Of a DNA stretch of 64,000 bases, positions 1-9,000 are shown piece by piece. Location of the stretch: NCBI RefSeq assembly GCF_003334385.1, contig NZ_QOWN01000001.1. The stretch is one strand, 5' to 3'. Position numbers: made by a program. Numbering within the stretch: the first letter of the stretch is position 1; each line of letters starts with the position of its first letter. The stretch is from Escherichia coli. Lineage in GTDB: Bacteria; Pseudomonadota; Gammaproteobacteria; Enterobacterales; Enterobacteriaceae.

Positions 1-3000
1 TACTTCAGCCAGGAACGATCAGAAAAAGAGACTATACAGGCTCTGAATCATCTGCGCAGGGTACTTCATGAAGTCAGCCCTTTTGCACAGGAGCCTGTGG
101 ACTGTGTGCTGTGGGTGAAAGCAGATGAGGTGGTGGCCAACGATTATAACCCCAATGTCATGGCGCCGGGTGAGAAGAAACTGCTGAAGCAGTCACTGGA
201 GAAAGATGGTTTCACCCAACCCGTGGTGGTGTCGGCGGAGAAGAACCCCTATCTGGTGGTGGATGGTTTTCATCGTCAGTTACTGGGCAGGGAAGCAGGT
301 ACAGGAAAACGCCTGAAAGGCTGGTTGCCAGTGGCCTGTATTAATCCGGAAAGAAAGGGACAGGCCACACGTATGGCGGCCACCATACGGCATAACCGGG
401 CCAGGGGTAAACACCAGATAACCTCAATGTCTGATATTGTCAGGGACCTGTCACGCCTGGGCTGGACGGATGAACGCATTGGTACAGAGCCTGGGGATGG
501 ACCAGGATGAAGTGCTGAGGCTGAAACAGATTAGCGGACTGACGGAGTTGTTTCAGGAAGAGGATTTCAGCCCGGCATGGACGGTTCGCTGAGACCGTCA
601 TATATGAGTATTATTTCAGTGAGTTGATGTTTTGAGCAGGAAAAATAGTACCCCGGAAGTCGTGGAAGACATGGTTGCACAGAAGCTGGAGGCGGCGGGT
701 TGCTGGCGCAGAGCTTCTGCCCGCTGGCTTTTTGTTATGGGAAATGTTGAATGTACAGAAGCACAACGGGAGTGGTTGTTGTTGCGCCGGAATTATTGTC
801 TGGCGCAGATATCGTCCCCGCCGCTACCTGAAAAGCTGGATATCAGCGAAGTGGCGAAAGCTGCAGATGCCACGCTGAGGCGAATGGGGATTGCCAGCCC
901 GTCCGGGGAGATATTCAGAAAAGGTACACCGGTCTGTTGATATTCAGGTAACAGGTATTAATGATGAAGAAAGATATGGCGGACAGTGTGTCAATGACAT
1001 GGCAACTTTTATGCGATGAACATGGTTTTACCCGGGAGCACTACAATCAGCTGAAGAAGTTCAGCCCGGAGACATTACGTGAAATTATTGCTGAAATAGC
1101 CAGCTGTCATCCATCAACCAGTGTATTGCTCAGGAATAAGTGGCTGACACCGCCGGAGGATATTCTGGAGCAGATTACCCGTGAATACGAACGAAGAATA
1201 CAAAACTGTCCATCGTTCAGGAGCGAGAAGGAAGCGGAATCCTGGTTAAATGAACTGTCTTTTGCTGTGATTGCTCCGCTATACCGTGTTGTCCCCGAAC
1301 AAACAGAACAGGTTGAGTCCTTTGTTCTGCAGCTTATTGCCGAGCAGGAGCGGGTTTGGGAGCTTATTTTAACCAATGATGGTTATTCATGGCATTGCGC
1401 ACTTTATGATATATTATTTCATCTGGTTTTACGAAATATGGAAGACCAGCCTGAACATCAGAGACAGCGAATAACAAAAATACTTAATGAGTCCGATACA
1501 AGACGGGTGGCAGAAGAGATTAAATTCCGGATTCAATATCTTCAGGATGAAGAACAAAAGAGAGTTTTAAGTGATCTGGTAAATGTCCTGATTTCAAAAA
1601 GATAAAACATGCCGGAGTAATTTTTCTATATGTTAATAAAACAGGTGCGTATTACCATGAAGAAGATCGGTGAGTAACCGTTATTGGATGATCTCCTTCC
1701 ATAAAAATACGCGCAATCTAACGGTTCGCTCTGTGCCAAAAAAAGATATTGCTCACAATATCAAGTTAATCATTCGGCCGTTGAACATTTCCATTGAAAA
1801 ATTTCTCAGTATAGAATATACCAATGTTGAGGGCATTCCTCTTACATCTCGAAGGATAACTATCATGGGTCTTAAACCAGGTCCAAAACCAATTGCTAAG
1901 TCGGTAGGAAAACCGGATCAACGCCGACGCGATAATAAAGATACTCCTGGCAATACTCCGGGACTAAAGCCAAGTAAGTCCACAGGTAAGTAAAAAAATA
2001 AGGGTATAAACAAGCATTTATACACTGACTATATATCCAGTCCACTGAAGGTGTTTCAGCAACCAGATGCTCGTTCTTTCTATATCATACGCCTTTGCCC
2101 CGTACCCTTTCGCAAGCAAAGACTCTGGTAAATACTCGTCATATTTATCCAGATCCTTATCAGGAACAACTGCAGCAAGCTCAAATTCTGAAGGTGCAAA
2201 ATGGCATCTGAATCGATCACGACCTGGCATGAGCGAGAGAAGAGGCCAGTGATACAAGGCGTCGTGTACTACGCGGATCATCGAGACGGGCATGTCCAAA
2301 CTGCTCGTTAGCCCATGAATAACAATCAGAAAGTACCATAACAGAGTCGAATAAAATGAAATATAAGAGAAGATCAACGGGTGAAGAAAAAGTTCAAAAA
2401 ATGGCTACCGGGGAGGAAGGAAAGTACCGGATGGAAAGAGCCCCCCCTAAAGCAGACTGACAGACATCACAAATCCCCGGGTGGGGACTTGTGTATAAGA
2501 GACAGGTCTTACAGGGGGAGCGTCCGTCTTTTTATCAACATCAGGCAATGACATAACATTATGAACAAGCGCACAAGTCTGATGGTTAAATTTTATAATG
2601 CTCCTTACTAAGACCGTATTTTTTCATTCTGAGATAGAGTTTTTTCCGTGGGATTTGTAAATATTCAGCAACCTCATTGATACGCCCCTGATGGATATTA
2701 AGCGCCTCTGTGATTATCTGTCGCTCAGCGTCCTCCACTCGTCTGTCAAGCGGTGTCGGGGTTCCGACGTGCATCAACGGATTTGCTGTTTCTGCCAGCG
2801 GTAATACTCCTACAGTAAATAGTTCTGCTGCATTGGCCAGCTCTCGCACATTATTTGGCCACATGCGGCGCATCATCTCTTTGAGCATCTCTTTTCCCAC
2901 TTCCGGAACAGGATGGTTAAGCCGTTGACATGCTTTACAAAGGTAATGGCGAAACAGTGGTTCAATATCGTCGGGGCGTTGAGTTAATGGCAGGCAAGCG

Positions 3001-6000: not shown

Positions 6001-9000
6001 TCTGGTAATGGTTTCTTCAGGCGTGCCTCGGTACTGTGCAGCGCTCGCCAGGCATCTTTTAGCTGTGCGAACCGAAAGCTAATTGCCGTATCAAACAAGC
6101 GCTGCACCAGACGCTGACGTTTCAGGATAAGGTGATAATTCAGCGGGGGTTGATTCATCAGGAGCTGTTGTTGCGTTGCCCGCGGATTGTCTGCGGCAAG
6201 TGGTGTCACCGGATATTTTCCTGTATCGGCATCGGCCAGAATACGCTGTCCTTTCGGACTTAACAGGTAGTGAATAAAGCGACGGGCTGCATCGGCGTGT
6301 GGGCTTTTCCTGAGAATTGCAACGTAGGTGGGGGATACCGCAGACCGGGGGAAATAGGTAAAAGAGATATGGGGGTCATTTAACAGTAAATTAGCATAGT
6401 TATCGATAACGGGGCCGGCAACGCCGAGTCCGCTTTTTATTTTATCGGCTACGCCAAAACTGCGGGAGGAGATTGTCACCAGGTTTCCTGCACTTGTCAG
6501 CAACGTTTCCCATCCTTTCACCCAGCCTTTTTGCTGTAGTAATGACTCAACCATTAAATGGTTAGTATCTGAACGCGACGGACTACTCATCAATAAAGCG
6601 TCCTGATAGATCGGCAAAGCAAGATCGTCCCAGTCAGCAGGGGCAGGAAGGTGTTTTACAGAAAGCGCAGGACGATTAATAAGCAGACCAAAACCTGATA
6701 TTGCTACTGCAACGGAGGTTGCACGGATCGACTCCGGCACCAGGTTTTGGCTTTCTGCGGGTGCATCATCAAACGGGGCCAGTTTCTGGTGCTCCTGAAG
6801 GTGCTGGAGCAGCATTGGTGATGAAGTCAGGATCAGATCGACGTTTTCTACGTTGGCCGTATCAAGCAACTGTTCCAGTGAGGCACTGGTGCGGTTAAGC
6901 GTACGGATCATTACCGACTCAGGCTCTGTTTGCCAGCGCTGTATTATCCACGTGATAGCTCCGGGTGAGAATGTGGTGGCCATCACCAGTTCATTTCGTT
7001 GAGCCCTGACGGCCCCGACATCCATCAACAACAGTAAAAGAATCATGGTTTTGATGCCGATTTCGCACCAACTAAAGAATCGGTTTGTGATCCAGGTCAT
7101 AAATATTAATACACCGCAAAAATCGCATTGAGACAAAAATTACCCGTTTCAGACACTTCGTCTGATAACACGTCTGTTCAAAGAGACCGTTAATATATTA
7201 ATCAGAGATTACCCGATAATCAGCATGAGATTTGTTAATATCCGCACATGCTAACAACAAACCAGATAAAGCATAAATCTGCCCTGTCTATGCATCAATA
7301 AAATGGGTCAAAAACAGGCTTTGATTTTATTATTTTGTGTCAATTGTGACACATTTTTTCAGTTTGATATTTCATCTCAATTATATAACTCTCATTGTCA
7401 GAATACTCCTGATGTTCATATCAATATAAAATACAGGTGAAGACATGTTATCAATATTTAAAACGGGGCAAGCGGCGGATAGTGTTCCGGCGGAGAAAAT
7501 TCAGGTGACATATCGTCGCTATCGTATGCAGGCGTTACTTAGCGTATTTCTGGGGTATCTTGCATACTATATCGTGCGTAATAATTTCACCTTATCAACG
7601 CCTTATCTTAAAGAGCAATTAGATCTCAGCGCCACACAAATTGGCGTACTGAGTAGCTGTATGCTTATCGCCTATGGTATCAGCAAAGGAGTGATGAGTA
7701 GCCTTGCCGATAAAGCCAGTCCGAAAGTCTTTATGGCGTGTGGGCTGGTGTTATGTGCCATCGTTAACGTTGGCCTGGGATTCAGCACCGCATTCTGGAT
7801 TTTTGCGGCATTGGTTATTCTGAATGGTCTTTTCCAGGGAATGGGCGTTGGTCCTTCTTTCATCACTATTGCTAACTGGTTCCCTCGCCGGGAGCGTGGT
7901 CGGGTTGGTGCTTTCTGGAATATCTCTCATAACATCGGTGGTGGTATTGTTGCACCGATTGTTGGTGCCGCTTTTGCCCTACTCGGCAGCGAGCACTGGC
8001 AAAGTGCGAGTTATATCGTTCCGGCCTGCGTGGCCATCGTTTTTGCGGTAATTGTGCTGATTCTCGGTAAAGGTTCCCCACATCAGGAAGGTCTACCCTC
8101 TCTGGAAGAGATGATGCCGGAAGAAAAAGTCGTCCTGAATACCCGACAGACGGTAAAAGCACCAGAAAACATGAGCGCCTTTCAGATTTTCTGCACTTAT
8201 GTATTACGCAATAAAAATGCCTGGTATGTCTCACTGGTTGACGTATTTGTATACATGGTGCGCTTCGGGATGATTAGCTGGTTGCCTATTTATCTGCTGA
8301 CGGTGAAACATTTTTCAAAAGAACAAATGAGCGTCGCATTTTTATTTTTTGAATGGGCCGCGATCCCTTCCACGCTACTTGCCGGTTGGTTGTCAGACAA
8401 ACTGTTTAAAGGGCGTCGTATGCCATTGGCGATGATTTGTATGGCGCTGATTTTCATTTGCCTGATTGGCTACTGGAAAAGTGAATCGTTGTTTATGGTG
8501 ACAATTTTTGCTGCCATTGTTGGTTGTCTGATTTACGTTCCACAATTTCTGGCTTCCGTTCAGACTATGGAGATCGTGCCCAGCTTTGCTGTTGGCTCCG
8601 CGGTAGGTTTACGTGGTTTTATGAGCTATATCTTCGGTGCATCTCTGGGCACCAGCCTGTTTGGTATTATGGTCGATCATATTGGCTGGCATGGCGGATT
8701 TTATCTTCTTGGCTGCGGTATTATTTGTTGCATCATTTTTTGCTGGTTATCACATCGTGGTGCAATTGAACTTGAACGTCACAGAGCCGCATATATAAAA
8801 GAGCACTAATTACCTTCCCCAGGGTCGTTTCCCTGGGGAGTGGAGCATATTATGATTTATAAGATATCTGGCAATCAGAGATTAATATGGAAATTTTATA
8901 AAACTGATGACAATAAATGGAGATGGTATTGTCATGAGAAAAATGGATATCTTTTGTCTCAATCAGATAACGCATATAATTCGCAATTGTTATGCATTGA

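What the first reader, a model, noticed from the sequence alone, without database searches (positions are those of the whole stretch)
2586..8809. Salmonella-type phosphoglycerate uptake module (pgtP with pgtCBA regulators) carried on an E. coli island, with a candidate operator
A complete four-gene module is present: transporter pgtP divergent from tightly overlapping pgtC-pgtB-pgtA (4-bp and 20-bp overlaps). This system is characteristic of Salmonella rather than the E. coli core, so the island adds a metabolic capability alongside adhesins. The divergent control region contains an inverted repeat TGTGTCA-ATTG-TGACACA (7336..7353) about 92 bp upstream of pgtP, a plausible PgtA or other regulator site.
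Basis: partly seen in the sequence, partly recalled or inferred. Interest (0 to 1): 0.55.

Follow-up and report, generated by a model that had tools for sequence, protein, structure and literature searches.

The report
Phosphoglycerate uptake genes, conserved operator
This is the already known four-gene phosphoglycerate uptake system (pgtP plus regulators pgtC, pgtB, pgtA) on a uropathogenic-type E. coli island, and the small palindrome in front of pgtP is a control site kept across ten bacterial genera, most likely where the regulator PgtA binds.

Summary
pgtA, pgtB, pgtC and pgtP are intact at 2586-8809. PgtA, PgtB and PgtP pass NCBI's curated equivalog cut-offs, and UhpT and GlpT models fall far below theirs. 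The palindrome TGTGTCAATTGTGACACA is at 7336-7353.

The module is not new. RefSeq names it, about 8% of complete E. coli genomes carry it, and it is described on PAI V of strain 536 and similar islands. It is also not Salmonella-specific: homologous pgtP/pgtCBA loci occur across Enterobacterales.

The palindrome alone is not beyond chance, since 31% of simulated regions have one. Conservation makes it real. TGnGTCA-N4-TGACnCA matches perfectly in nine independent loci from eight genera. It occurs once per locus, always between pgtP and pgtC. There is no covariation, and neither hairpin stability nor the T-run is conserved. A weaker second dyad lies 32 bp upstream, and a third related site lies near pgtC.

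All PgtA orthologues examined lack GAFTGA, the Walker B acidic pair and the Walker A lysine. No -24/-12 promoter is present.

My reading is that phosphorylated PgtA binds tandem dyads and activates a weak sigma-70 promoter, independently of sigma-54. Binding by PgtA is inferred, not shown, and the transcription start is unknown.

The parts
2586..3833 (-). pgtA. It encodes an NtrC-family response regulator (receiver domain with Asp56, degenerate AAA+ domain, Fis-type HTH), 415 aa.
   Evidence: NCBIfam equivalog NF047793 scores 730 bits against a cut-off of 650. Pfam finds Response_reg, Sigma54_activ_2, AAA_lid_14 and HTH_8, and matches Sigma54_activat only over model positions 1-55 of 168. Residues 140-284 are 100% identical to PDB 3N70. 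The protein lacks GAFTGA, the Walker B DE pair and the Walker A lysine.
3823..5832 (-). pgtB. It encodes the membrane sensor histidine kinase, 669 aa.
   Evidence: NCBIfam equivalog NF047794 scores 1068 bits against a cut-off of 1000. Orthologues carry HAMP, HisKA and HATPase_c domains.
5829..7100 (-). pgtC. It encodes a regulator resembling a periplasmic solute-binding protein. The likely start is the ATG at 7100 (423 aa); PGAP starts it at 7046 (405 aa).
   Evidence: PGAP names it PgtC. It is 78% identical to S. typhimurium PgtC. Homologues carry SBP_bac_11/6/8 domains. The N-terminus MTWITNR is conserved.
7129..7146 (+). Site S3, TGAGACAAAAATTACCCG. It is a degenerate relative of the dyad, centred 37.5 bp upstream of the pgtC ATG at 7100. 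It is a candidate autoregulatory site for pgtCBA.
   Evidence: It is the most conserved non-coding block of the spacer: TGAGACAAAAnTTACCC is invariant in Enterobacteriaceae and present in Morganella and Providencia. It matches 9 of the 12 specified dyad positions, which on its own is only suggestive.
7230..7248 (.). Conserved block ATTTGTTAATATCCGCACA, function unassigned. It may be a promoter element for pgtCBA or a site for another factor.
   Evidence: It is nearly invariant in seven Enterobacteriaceae and Mixta loci.
7304..7321 (+). Site S2, TGGGTCAAAAACAGGCTT. This is the weaker upstream dyad. In E. coli the left arm is perfect and the right arm is degenerate. Its centre is 32 bp (three helical turns) from the centre of S1.
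   Evidence: In the offset profile, the mean match at -32 is 7.0 against a background of 2.99 +/- 0.81, the highest of all offsets. Scores are 9-10 of 12 in Klebsiella, Citrobacter, Mixta and Salmonella. An equivalent site lies at -31 or -32 in Edwardsiella, Morganella, Providencia and Pragia, and at +33 in Yersinia.
7336..7353 (.). Site S1, TGTGTCA-ATTG-TGACACA. Its centre is 100.5 bp upstream of the pgtP ATG.
   Evidence: It matches TGnGTCA-N4-TGACnCA at 12 of 12 specified positions. Eleven of the 14 arm positions are invariant in 12 loci from 10 genera, while the spacer and flanks vary. It is the only exact match to the dyad pattern in the 64-kb window, where the sole other hit has two mismatches, and it occurs once per pgt locus, always in the spacer. 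There is no covariation.
7387..7444 (+). Highly conserved stretch just upstream of pgtP. It probably holds the core promoter and/or the 5' leader, with the Shine-Dalgarno sequence AGGTGA.
   Evidence: It is nearly identical in E. coli, Klebsiella, Citrobacter, Salmonella and Mixta. No plus-strand sigma-70 consensus promoter was found, and no match to the sigma-54 -24/-12 consensus falls anywhere in 7047-7444. The transcription start site is unknown.
7445..8809 (+). pgtP. It encodes an organophosphate:phosphate antiporter of the MFS family, a transporter for 2-/3-phosphoglycerate and PEP, 454 aa.
   Evidence: NCBIfam equivalog NF047787 scores 884 bits against a cut-off of 750, while UhpT and GlpT score below their cut-offs. 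It is 90% identical to Salmonella PgtP.

Best explanation
This is the Pgt system. PgtP imports 2-/3-phosphoglycerate and PEP in exchange for phosphate. External substrate is sensed in the envelope by the binding-protein-like PgtC together with the kinase PgtB, and PgtB phosphorylates PgtA on Asp56. That much is established for Salmonella and is inferred here by orthology.

The new inference concerns the control region. Phosphorylated PgtA dimers bind the dyad S1 (7336-7353, consensus TGnGTCA-N4-TGACnCA). They bind cooperatively with a weaker dyad S2 32 bp upstream (7304-7321), on the same face of the helix. From there PgtA switches on a weak, activator-dependent sigma-70 promoter lying somewhere in 7354-7444.

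The family to which PgtA belongs normally uses ATP hydrolysis to remodel sigma-54 polymerase. That cannot apply here: PgtA has lost the GAFTGA loop and the Walker B acidic pair, and the spacer has no -24/-12 element. PgtA therefore works like the sigma-54-independent NtrC relatives, by recruitment or derepression.

A third related site, S3 (7129-7146), lies 37 bp upstream of pgtC and may let PgtA regulate pgtCBA itself.
For: Identity of the module: establish the genes. The divergent pgtP / pgtC-B-A order is kept in 10 genera.

E. coli PgtA carries Glu141, Gly173 and His223. These are the S. Typhimurium-type residues; Gly173Asp is the change that inactivates S. Typhi PgtA (bioRxiv 10.1101/2024.02.14.580360).

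The dyad is real: it is a 12/12 match in nine independent loci from eight genera and 11/12 in three more. Its distance to the pgtP ATG is conserved at -98.5 to -120.5 in those nine loci. TGAGTCA is among the most widely shared 7-mers in an unbiased count. The pattern occurs once per locus and only in the spacer, across about 135 kb of fetched DNA.

A protein site rather than a hairpin: five of seven pairs never vary, and the variable pair is unpaired in 5 of 12 loci. Covariation is no better than in shuffles (71 of 500). Hairpin energy is -8.1 kcal/mol in E. coli but -3.1 in Salmonella. The T-run is not conserved.

Tandem geometry: the second site lies at -32, which from my knowledge of NtrC is the spacing of its sites at glnAp2.

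PgtA as the binder: it is the only DNA-binding protein encoded by the module and so the only regulator that always travels with the site. It has a Fis-type HTH_8 domain. The known NtrC site, TGCACC(A/T)4TGGTGCA (PMC4987338), is a dyad of the same size. The zraP-zraS spacer of K-12, which is ZraR's single high-affinity target (PMC8249747), holds GAGTAAAAATGACTC twice. That gives the same GAGT/GACTC half-sites with one base less between them.

Independence from sigma-54: the 19-20 aa deletion removing GAFTGA, the Walker A K-to-R change and the loss of the Walker B DE pair are seen in all 10 orthologues examined. Sigma54_activat matches only positions 1-55 of 168. No sigma-54 consensus match falls in 7047-7444 even with three mismatches allowed. 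The review of the Salmonella RpoN regulon lists only NtrC, ZraR and GlrR as two-component enhancer-binding proteins and never mentions pgt.
Against: No binding experiment for PgtA could be found or read. The 1986-1995 papers of the Hong laboratory are not held, so the pgtP transcription start and any earlier description of this repeat are unknown to me.

A perfect palindrome with 7-bp arms is common by chance in such AT-rich DNA.

S2 is degenerate in E. coli itself (6 of 12). S3 matches only 9 of 12, and about 0.6 such matches are expected per spacer by chance.

In Yersinia and Pragia the dyads lie 220-300 bp from pgtP, so the promoter geometry is not uniform.

CRP is also present in all these bacteria, and pgtP expression is CRP-dependent in Salmonella. 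There, another regulator, VrpA, binds the pgt promoter region (PMC7873081).

The Gly173Asp phenotype shows that the P-loop still matters, so some nucleotide-dependent step may remain.
Confidence: 0.7

Rival explanations
1. The dyad is a real, conserved operator, but it is bound by a host regulator other than PgtA. Candidates are CRP (pgtP is under catabolite control) or an unknown global factor. PgtA would bind elsewhere, for example at S3 or at the block 7230-7248.
For: CRP occurs in all the genera concerned, so conservation alone cannot exclude it. crp mutation lowers pgtP expression in Salmonella (PMC7873081). The E. coli version reads TGTG...CACA, and off-centre it matches the CRP core at 8 of 10 positions (my reading). 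Other conserved blocks in the spacer have no assigned binder.
Against: The CRP consensus is TGTGA-N6-TCACA, 16 bp end to end. Here TGTG and CACA are 18 bp end to end, and when the two are aligned centre to centre the half-sites do not match. The general consensus is TGAGTCA, not TGTGA, and the T at position 3 is peculiar to E. coli. In Salmonella, CRP was shown to act through VrpA by binding the vrpA promoter, and VrpA is absent from E. coli. The half-sites resemble those of ZraR, an NtrC-family relative of PgtA.
Confidence: 0.17
2. The repeat acts as a nucleic-acid hairpin: an intrinsic terminator or attenuator on the + strand, or an insulator between the two divergent transcription units.
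For: In E. coli it scores as terminator-like, with a 7-bp stem, a 4-nt loop and then TTTTTT. The predicted RNA energy is -8.1 kcal/mol. The three C-to-T changes at arm position 6 would still allow G-U pairs.
Against: The T-run is absent in most genera. The stem is interrupted in 5 of 12 loci, and the energy falls to -3 to -4 kcal/mol in Salmonella, Klebsiella and Morganella. There is no compensatory change beyond what shuffles give. The arm sequence itself, not just the pairing, is invariant. No promoter is known upstream that would transcribe it.
Confidence: 0.05
3. The palindrome has no function of its own. It would be a chance feature of AT-rich spacer DNA, kept only because the loci are related.
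For: 31% of simulated spacers carry such a palindrome. The Enterobacteriaceae loci are alignable throughout, so they are not independent.
Against: The pattern is retained perfectly in Edwardsiella, Morganella and Providencia, and with one mismatch in Yersinia and Pragia. The spacers of these genera are otherwise unalignable with that of E. coli. The 4-bp spacer and the flanks vary while 11 of 14 arm bases are invariant. A partner site at a fixed 31-33 bp recurs in all lineages.
Confidence: 0.05

Closest known systems
pgtP-pgtCBA phosphoglycerate transport system of Salmonella enterica serovar Typhimurium (Hong laboratory 1986-1995; Jiang et al. 2021, PMC7873081; bioRxiv 10.1101/2024.02.14.580360)
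   Same: It has the same four genes in the same divergent order with overlapping pgtC-B-A reading frames. PgtP is 90% and PgtC 78% identical. The dyad sits at the same place (TGAGTCAATTTTGACACA, centre -98.5) with S2 and S3. PgtA has the functional Gly173.
   Different: The E. coli copy lies on a mobile island at tRNA-Sec, between IS remnants, rather than in the core chromosome. Its dyad carries a symmetric A-to-T / T-to-A change (TGTGTCA...TGACACA), and its S2 right arm is degenerate. VrpA, the extra Salmonella activator, is reported to be absent from E. coli.
pgtABCP on E. coli pathogenicity islands (PAI V of UPEC 536; GI12 of mastitis strain ECC-1470; commensal A0 34/86; AIEC HM670)
   Same: It is the same E. 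coli module, next to P-family or Pix fimbrial operons. The window is 99.9% identical to UPEC132 and HM670 over 6.6 kb. Strain MB1 has the module next to fimbrial genes.
   Different: Here the island sits at selC and the neighbouring adhesin operon is pap with papG-II rather than pix. None of these papers discusses the control region.
NtrC-family regulators that work without sigma-54, such as Brucella NtrX (PDB 5M7N). Rhodobacter capsulatus NtrC and TyrR are further examples from my own knowledge.
   Same: They share the receiver domain, an AAA+-like domain and a Fis-type HTH, and they lack the GAFTGA loop. NtrX is the best full-length match among solved structures and, together with NtrC, one of the two next-best NCBIfam models after PgtA itself.
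   Different: PgtA is more degenerate. It also lacks the Walker B DE pair and has a second, 10-aa deletion. Its sensor side (PgtB plus the binding-protein-like PgtC) is unrelated to NtrY.
ZraR (HydG) and its sites in the zraP-zraSR spacer of E. coli K-12
   Same: Both control a divergent spacer between the regulated gene and the kinase-regulator operon. Both have dyad sites with GAGT / GACTC half-sites and an A/T-rich centre. ZraR binds that spacer as its single high-affinity target (PMC8249747). The recognition helices of both begin with R-K-x-L.
   Different: ZraR is a true sigma-54 activator with GAFTGA. Its half-sites are one base closer together (GAGTA-N5-GACTC against GAGTC-N6-GACTC). 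That these repeats are the ZraR footprint is my recollection of Leonhartsberger et al. 2001 and was not checked here.
UhpABC/UhpT hexose-phosphate system
   Same: The logic is the same: an organophosphate:phosphate antiporter of the same MFS subfamily, induced from outside by a two-component system with a third membrane sensor protein.
   Different: UhpT and UhpC models score below their cut-offs on PgtP (271 and 238 bits). UhpA is a NarL/LuxR-type regulator, whereas PgtA is NtrC-type. UhpC is a transporter homologue, whereas PgtC is a solute-binding-protein homologue.

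Membership tests
Pgt phosphoglycerate transport system | A PgtP transporter, an organophosphate:Pi antiporter that is distinct from UhpT and GlpT. | tested here: met
   NF047787 scores 884 bits against a cut-off of 750. GlpT scores 368 (cut-off 633) and UhpT 271 (cut-off 497). It is 90% identical to Salmonella PgtP.
Pgt phosphoglycerate transport system | A PgtB histidine kinase and a PgtA NtrC-type response regulator. | tested here: met
   NF047794 scores 1068 bits (cut-off 1000) and NF047793 scores 730 (cut-off 650).
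Pgt phosphoglycerate transport system | A PgtC regulator resembling a solute-binding protein. | tested here: met
   It is 78% identical to the S. typhimurium PgtC PIR entry. PGAP names it PgtC, and homologues carry SBP_bac domains. No NCBIfam equivalog model exists for PgtC.
Pgt phosphoglycerate transport system | pgtP divergent from a compact pgtC-pgtB-pgtA operon. | tested here: met
   This order is seen in the window and in the full loci from 9 other genera; the Salmonella contigs end inside pgtC, so only pgtP divergent from pgtC is seen there.
Pgt phosphoglycerate transport system | Induction by external 2-/3-phosphoglycerate or PEP, and growth on them. | not testable with these tools
   This needs growth and reporter assays. 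All four reading frames are intact, and PgtA has Gly173.
Sigma-54 enhancer-binding protein with its enhancer | A GAFTGA loop that contacts sigma-54. | tested here: not met
   A 19-20 aa deletion removes it in E. coli PgtA and in 9 orthologues. Pfam Sigma54_activat is matched only over positions 1-55 of 168.
Sigma-54 enhancer-binding protein with its enhancer | A catalytic AAA+ site with a Walker A lysine and a Walker B DE pair. | tested here: not met
   GxxGxGR replaces GxxGxGK, and LSHPE or IKNIE replaces LDEIG, in all orthologues.
Sigma-54 enhancer-binding protein with its enhancer | A -24/-12 promoter (TGGCAC-N5-TTGCA) downstream of the sites. | tested here: not met
   No match with up to 3 mismatches falls anywhere in 7047-7444. 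pgtP is absent from the published Salmonella RpoN regulon table.
Sigma-54 enhancer-binding protein with its enhancer | Tandem dyad sites about three helical turns apart, upstream of the promoter. | tested here: met
   S1 and S2 are 32 bp apart centre to centre, and the spacing recurs in all lineages.
cAMP-CRP binding site | TGTGA-N6-TCACA, symmetric and 16 bp long. | tested here: not met
   The dyad is 18 bp long with a general consensus of TGAGTCA-N4-TGACTCA. When aligned centre to centre, the half-sites do not match.
Intrinsic terminator | A stable G+C-rich hairpin followed by a T-run, conserved among orthologues. | tested here: not met
   The feature is met in E. coli only. The T-run and the stem stability are lost in other genera.

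The most novel reading that the evidence does not exclude
PgtA is a 'fossil' enhancer-binding protein. It keeps the NtrC-style architecture on DNA: tandem dyads three helical turns apart, with half-sites like those of ZraR. However, it has lost every part needed to drive sigma-54 (GAFTGA, Walker B, the Walker A lysine), and it activates a sigma-70 promoter by another route. On this reading the whole Pgt regulatory module derives from a ZraSR-like sigma-54 system that was rewired, and the dyad TGnGTCA-N4-T(G/A)ACnCA is its so far undescribed operator. If so, the recent proposal that the S. Typhi Gly173Asp change acts by disturbing contact with sigma-54 would need revising.
Probability: 0.5. Interest if true: 0.45.

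Novelty: already known. Interest (0 to 1): 0.28.

Why it matters
The module gives extraintestinal and gut-colonising E. coli the ability to take up host glycolytic intermediates. In Salmonella, 3-phosphoglycerate uptake through PgtP supports growth in macrophages (PMC7873081). That role, and the module's presence on E. coli islands, are already in the literature, so the finding adds little as a gene discovery.

What this analysis adds is a precise and testable map of the control region. It defines an 18-bp dyad kept across six families of Enterobacterales, a partner site 32 bp away, and a third site near pgtC. It also shows that the regulator cannot use sigma-54. Together these give defined targets for footprinting, for reporter mutagenesis, and for building 3-phosphoglycerate biosensors such as the one already made from the Salmonella spacer.

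Tried and rejected
1. Scan of species-representative genomes for PgtC relatives. The request was never sent because of a queue time-out, yet the cap was consumed. I replaced it with 12 exact-protein look-ups. L005 ended at pgtC and gave no spacer.

2. The original Salmonella papers that should hold the pgtP transcription start are not held (Goldrick 1988, PMC211310; Niu 1995, PMC177176). Searches for a PgtA motif, for PgtA with GAFTGA, and for PgtA with TyrR found nothing relevant.

3. Sigma-54 promoter. No candidate was found in the spacer, so this was rejected.

4. Sigma-70 promoter for pgtP. The consensus scan found none on the + strand. By eye, TATAAC (7383-7388) and AATACT (7402-7407) are possible -10 elements. 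Neither is conserved together with a -35, so I do not commit to a start site.

5. A CRP-like site, TGTGATCCAGGTCATA (7086-7101), looked conserved. It is in fact the reverse complement of the first codons of pgtC (ATG ACC TGG ATC ACA = MTWIT). Protein coding explains its conservation, so I rejected it as evidence for CRP.

6. CRP at the dyad was rejected on spacing and half-site sequence.

7. The hairpin/terminator reading was rejected.

8. My first dinucleotide-shuffle script timed out. I replaced it with first-order Markov simulations.

The ZraR comparison was repeated with the real K-12 gene and gave the same result.

Full report
**What is in the sequence**

The ORF list shows 2586..3842(-), 3823..5832(-), 5829..7136(-) and 7445..8809(+). 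The 18-bp perfect palindrome TGTGTCA-ATTG-TGACACA occupies 7336..7353, 92 bp before the pgtP ATG.

Two gene starts need correcting. pgtA most likely begins at the ATG at 3833. The NCBIfam PgtA model aligns from residue 4 of the long ORF, PGAP uses that start, and most orthologues begin ML(S/T/D). The pgtB-pgtA overlap is then 11 bp rather than 20. pgtC most likely begins at the ATG at 7100, giving 423 aa. The N-terminus MTWITNR is conserved as MNGITNR in Salmonella and Citrobacter. The TTG at 7136 is only the ORF limit, and PGAP's 7046 start drops the conserved residues. The non-coding spacer is thus 7101..7444.

**Identity of the genes**

PgtA (730 bits, cut-off 650), PgtB (1068, cut-off 1000) and PgtP (884, cut-off 750) all pass NCBI's curated equivalog thresholds. 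The UhpT, UhpC and GlpT models score far below theirs. PgtP is 90% identical to Salmonella PgtP, and PgtC is 78% identical to the old S. typhimurium entry. RefSeq annotates the same DNA as pgtA, pgtB, pgtC and pgtP. The rival reading, an Uhp-like or other organophosphate system, is excluded.

**Distribution and context**

The whole module is present in 431 of 5426 complete E. coli genomes. The control region is present in 446, including the type strain ATCC 11775.

In the window, the module lies on an island that ends at tRNA-Sec (28028..28122), next to an integrase. The island also carries a pap operon with papG-II, tia and a phosphoethanolamine transferase. IS remnants lie on both sides of the pgt genes. 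In strain MB1 the same cassette sits next to other fimbrial genes.

This arrangement is published. PAI V of UPEC 536 carries 'a putative phosphoglycerate transport system' beside Pix fimbriae (PMC9686529). GI12 of strain ECC-1470 carries pgtABCP (PMC5422975). Strain HM670, which is 99.9% identical to the window here, was noted for it (PMC10731797).

PgtC homologues with the same neighbours occur in Klebsiella, Citrobacter, Salmonella, Mixta, Symbiopectobacterium, Edwardsiella, Yersinia, Morganella, Providencia, Pragia, Budvicia and others. The system is therefore an Enterobacterales trait, not a Salmonella one. The E. coli copy is about equally distant from Klebsiella and Citrobacter (PgtC 82-85%) and from Salmonella (78-82%).

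**Is the palindrome more than chance?**

On its own it is not. In a 398-bp stretch of 34% G+C, 31% of first-order Markov simulations contain a perfect inverted repeat with 7-bp arms and a loop of 0-8 bp.

The evidence comes from comparison. I collected the pgtP-pgtC spacers of 12 loci from 10 genera. The pattern TGnGTCA-N4-TGACnCA is matched at all 12 specified positions in E. coli, two Klebsiella species, Citrobacter, Mixta, Edwardsiella, Morganella, Providencia and Salmonella. In these the centre lies 98.5-120.5 bp from the pgtP ATG. It is matched at 11 of 12 positions in two Yersinia species and in Pragia, where it lies further upstream.

Eleven of the 14 arm positions are invariant in all 12 loci, while the four central bases and the flanks vary. 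Outside Enterobacteriaceae the spacers are otherwise unalignable. In an unbiased count of shared 7-mers, TGAGTCA/TGACTCA (11 of 12 loci) ties for first place with GTCAAAA, which is also part of the sites. Across all fetched DNA, the pattern occurs exactly once per pgt locus, always in the spacer, and nowhere else. In the 64-kb window it is the only perfect match.

Both E. coli lineages examined carry the variant TGTGTCA...TGACACA.

**Protein site or hairpin?**

The scan flags the E. coli repeat as terminator-like because TTTTTT follows it. The T-run is not conserved. Five of the seven pairs never vary. The one freely variable pair (positions 3 and 16) is unpaired in 5 of 12 loci, and the covariation score is reached by 71 of 500 shuffles. 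Predicted hairpin energy is -8.1 kcal/mol in E. coli but only -3.1 to -4.4 in Salmonella, Klebsiella and Morganella. What is conserved is the sequence of a dyad, not a structure. That is the signature of a dimeric DNA-binding protein.

**A second and a third site**

I scored the dyad pattern at every offset from S1. The mean match peaks at -32 bp, at 7.0 against a background of 2.99 +/- 0.81, which is the highest of all offsets.

The site there, S2, reads TGGGTCAAAAATAACC in Salmonella, Klebsiella, Citrobacter and Mixta (9-10 of 12). Equivalent sites lie at -31 or -32 in Edwardsiella, Morganella, Providencia (with a 3-bp centre) and Pragia, and at +33 in both Yersinia species. In E. coli only the left arm of S2 (7304-7310) is intact.

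The sites I first called S1 in Yersinia and Pragia are of the S2 type when read on the other strand (TGAGTCAAAATTAACTCA, TGCGTCAAAAATAACCCA). A G or an A is therefore tolerated in one arm.

The most conserved block of the whole spacer is TGAGACAAAAnTTACCC (7129-7146), centred 37.5 bp upstream of the pgtC ATG. It shares TG-G-CA...T-AC-C with the dyad. At 9 of 12 positions this is only suggestive, since about 0.6 such matches are expected per spacer. It does, however, coincide with a strong footprint.

**Which protein?**

PgtA is the only DNA-binding protein encoded by the module, so it is the only regulator that always accompanies the site. It has a Fis-type HTH_8 domain.

Dyads of this size are typical for the family. 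NtrC binds TGCACC(A/T)4TGGTGCA (PMC4987338). From my own knowledge, its two sites at glnAp2 are also three helical turns apart.

The zraP-zraS spacer of K-12 is the single high-affinity target of ZraR (PMC8249747). It contains GAGTAAAAATGACTCGC and its inverted copy, that is, GAGT/GACTC half-sites like those of the pgt dyad with one base less between them. That these repeats are the ZraR footprint is my recollection of Leonhartsberger et al. 2001, and I could not check it.

CRP is the main alternative, since pgtP is CRP-dependent in Salmonella. There, however, CRP acts on vrpA, and VrpA, which is absent from E. coli, binds the pgt promoter (PMC7873081). The dyad also has neither the CRP spacing nor its half-sites.

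I found no paper in the held library that describes a PgtA binding site. The Hong laboratory papers of 1986-1995 are not held.

**How PgtA can act**

[quoted passage not shown] The sequence says otherwise. Compared with the real K-12 ZraR, PgtA lacks the 20 residues that hold GAFTGA. It has GTGR in place of the Walker A GTGK, and LSHPE in place of the Walker B LDEIG. The same holds for orthologues from nine other genera, which also share a second 10-residue deletion.

Pfam's Sigma54_activat model matches only its first 55 of 168 positions. The crystallised fragment 3N70 is this very domain, 100% identical over residues 140-284. The best full-length structural relative is Brucella NtrX, which to my knowledge also lacks GAFTGA.

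The spacer has no -24/-12 element even with three mismatches allowed. The review of the Salmonella RpoN regulon names only NtrC, ZraR and GlrR as two-component enhancer-binding proteins and does not list pgt.

I therefore propose that PgtA~P activates a weak sigma-70 promoter. No consensus sigma-70 promoter is found on the + strand, as expected for an activator-dependent one. The nearly invariant stretch 7387-7444 probably holds the -10 region and the leader. I could not place the start site. Gly173 lies in the P-loop (G170-A-P-G173-T-G-R), so nucleotide binding may still matter.

**Verdict**

As a gene finding it is already known and annotated. The useful addition is the demonstration that the palindrome is one of a set of conserved dyads with NtrC-like geometry, most likely bound by a PgtA that has lost all sigma-54 machinery.

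My confidence in each step:
- Identity of the module: about 0.99.
- The dyad is a functional cis-element: about 0.9.
- PgtA is its binder and acts independently of sigma-54: about 0.7.

Noticed in passing
window 7046-7136: The pgtC start codon is annotated inconsistently. PGAP in UPEC132 and MB1 uses the ATG at 7046 (405 aa), and the longest ORF starts at the TTG at 7136. The ATG at 7100 (423 aa) gives an N-terminus MTWITNR that is conserved in Salmonella and Citrobacter (MNGITNR) and corresponds to a 423-aa E. coli entry (P0001). The short form drops the N-terminal 18 residues that carry this conserved start.
   Followed up: partly
window 8840-9217 (+): An ORF of about 121-125 aa lies directly after pgtP and has no Pfam match. 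It travels with the pgt cassette in two different E. coli island contexts (UPEC132 and MB1) but is not next to pgtP in the other genera. Its function is unknown.
   Followed up: partly
window about 2230-2340 and 9250-10490: The pgt cassette is bracketed by IS remnants: a transposase DNA-binding fragment on the pgtA side and a frameshifted IS3-family transposase after the small ORF. Strain MB1 has different IS remnants (IS21) at the same borders. This suggests the roughly 6.5-kb cassette moved between islands as a unit.
   Followed up: partly
window 26548-28122: The island boundary is here. A tyrosine integrase gene (about 26548-27732, - strand) lies next to tRNA-Sec (28028-28122, - strand). 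Core genes (yicJ, yicI and onward) follow. The island is therefore selC-associated and carries the pap operon with papG-II (about 13500-21960), tia and a phosphoethanolamine transferase.
   Followed up: partly
window about 32150-32175, compared with L015 12193-19448: Relative to UPEC132, the window lacks a block of about 7 kb (BglG-type antiterminator, PTS fructose-type IIA/IIB/IIC, two aldolases, a ROK protein and a lyxose isomerase) between yicI and yicH. It also lacks the IS1 copy present in UPEC132 near window position 1800.
   Followed up: no
L009 3001-4623 (Klebsiella pneumoniae CM127798.1): In this strain pgtC is called as a 540-aa product with a C-terminal GrpB domain, and pgtB and pgtA are missing; a LysR gene follows. 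Yet pgtP and a perfect dyad (TGAGTCAATTTTGACTCA) remain. This looks like a recent deletion that leaves an orphan transporter and operator.
   Followed up: no
window 2586-3833 (PgtA residues 140-284): PDB entry 3N70 ('Transport activator', 145 aa) is 100% identical to the degenerate AAA+ domain of this E. coli PgtA. A structure of the domain that lacks GAFTGA and Walker B therefore already exists.
   Followed up: partly
window 7387-7444: The 58 bp before the pgtP ATG are almost invariant among E. coli, Klebsiella, Citrobacter, Salmonella and Mixta. They are more conserved than most of the spacer and as conserved as coding sequence. A shorter core, ACTCT...GTCAGAA, recurs in Morganella and Providencia. 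This suggests a constrained leader or promoter, possibly under post-transcriptional control.
   Followed up: no
window 7336-7353, compared with orthologues: E. coli is the only lineage in which both arms carry the symmetric change at positions 3 and 16 (TGAGTCA to TGTGTCA, and TGACTCA to TGACACA). The change keeps a perfect palindrome and creates TGTG...CACA ends. Whether it alters affinity or adds cross-talk is unknown.
   Followed up: partly
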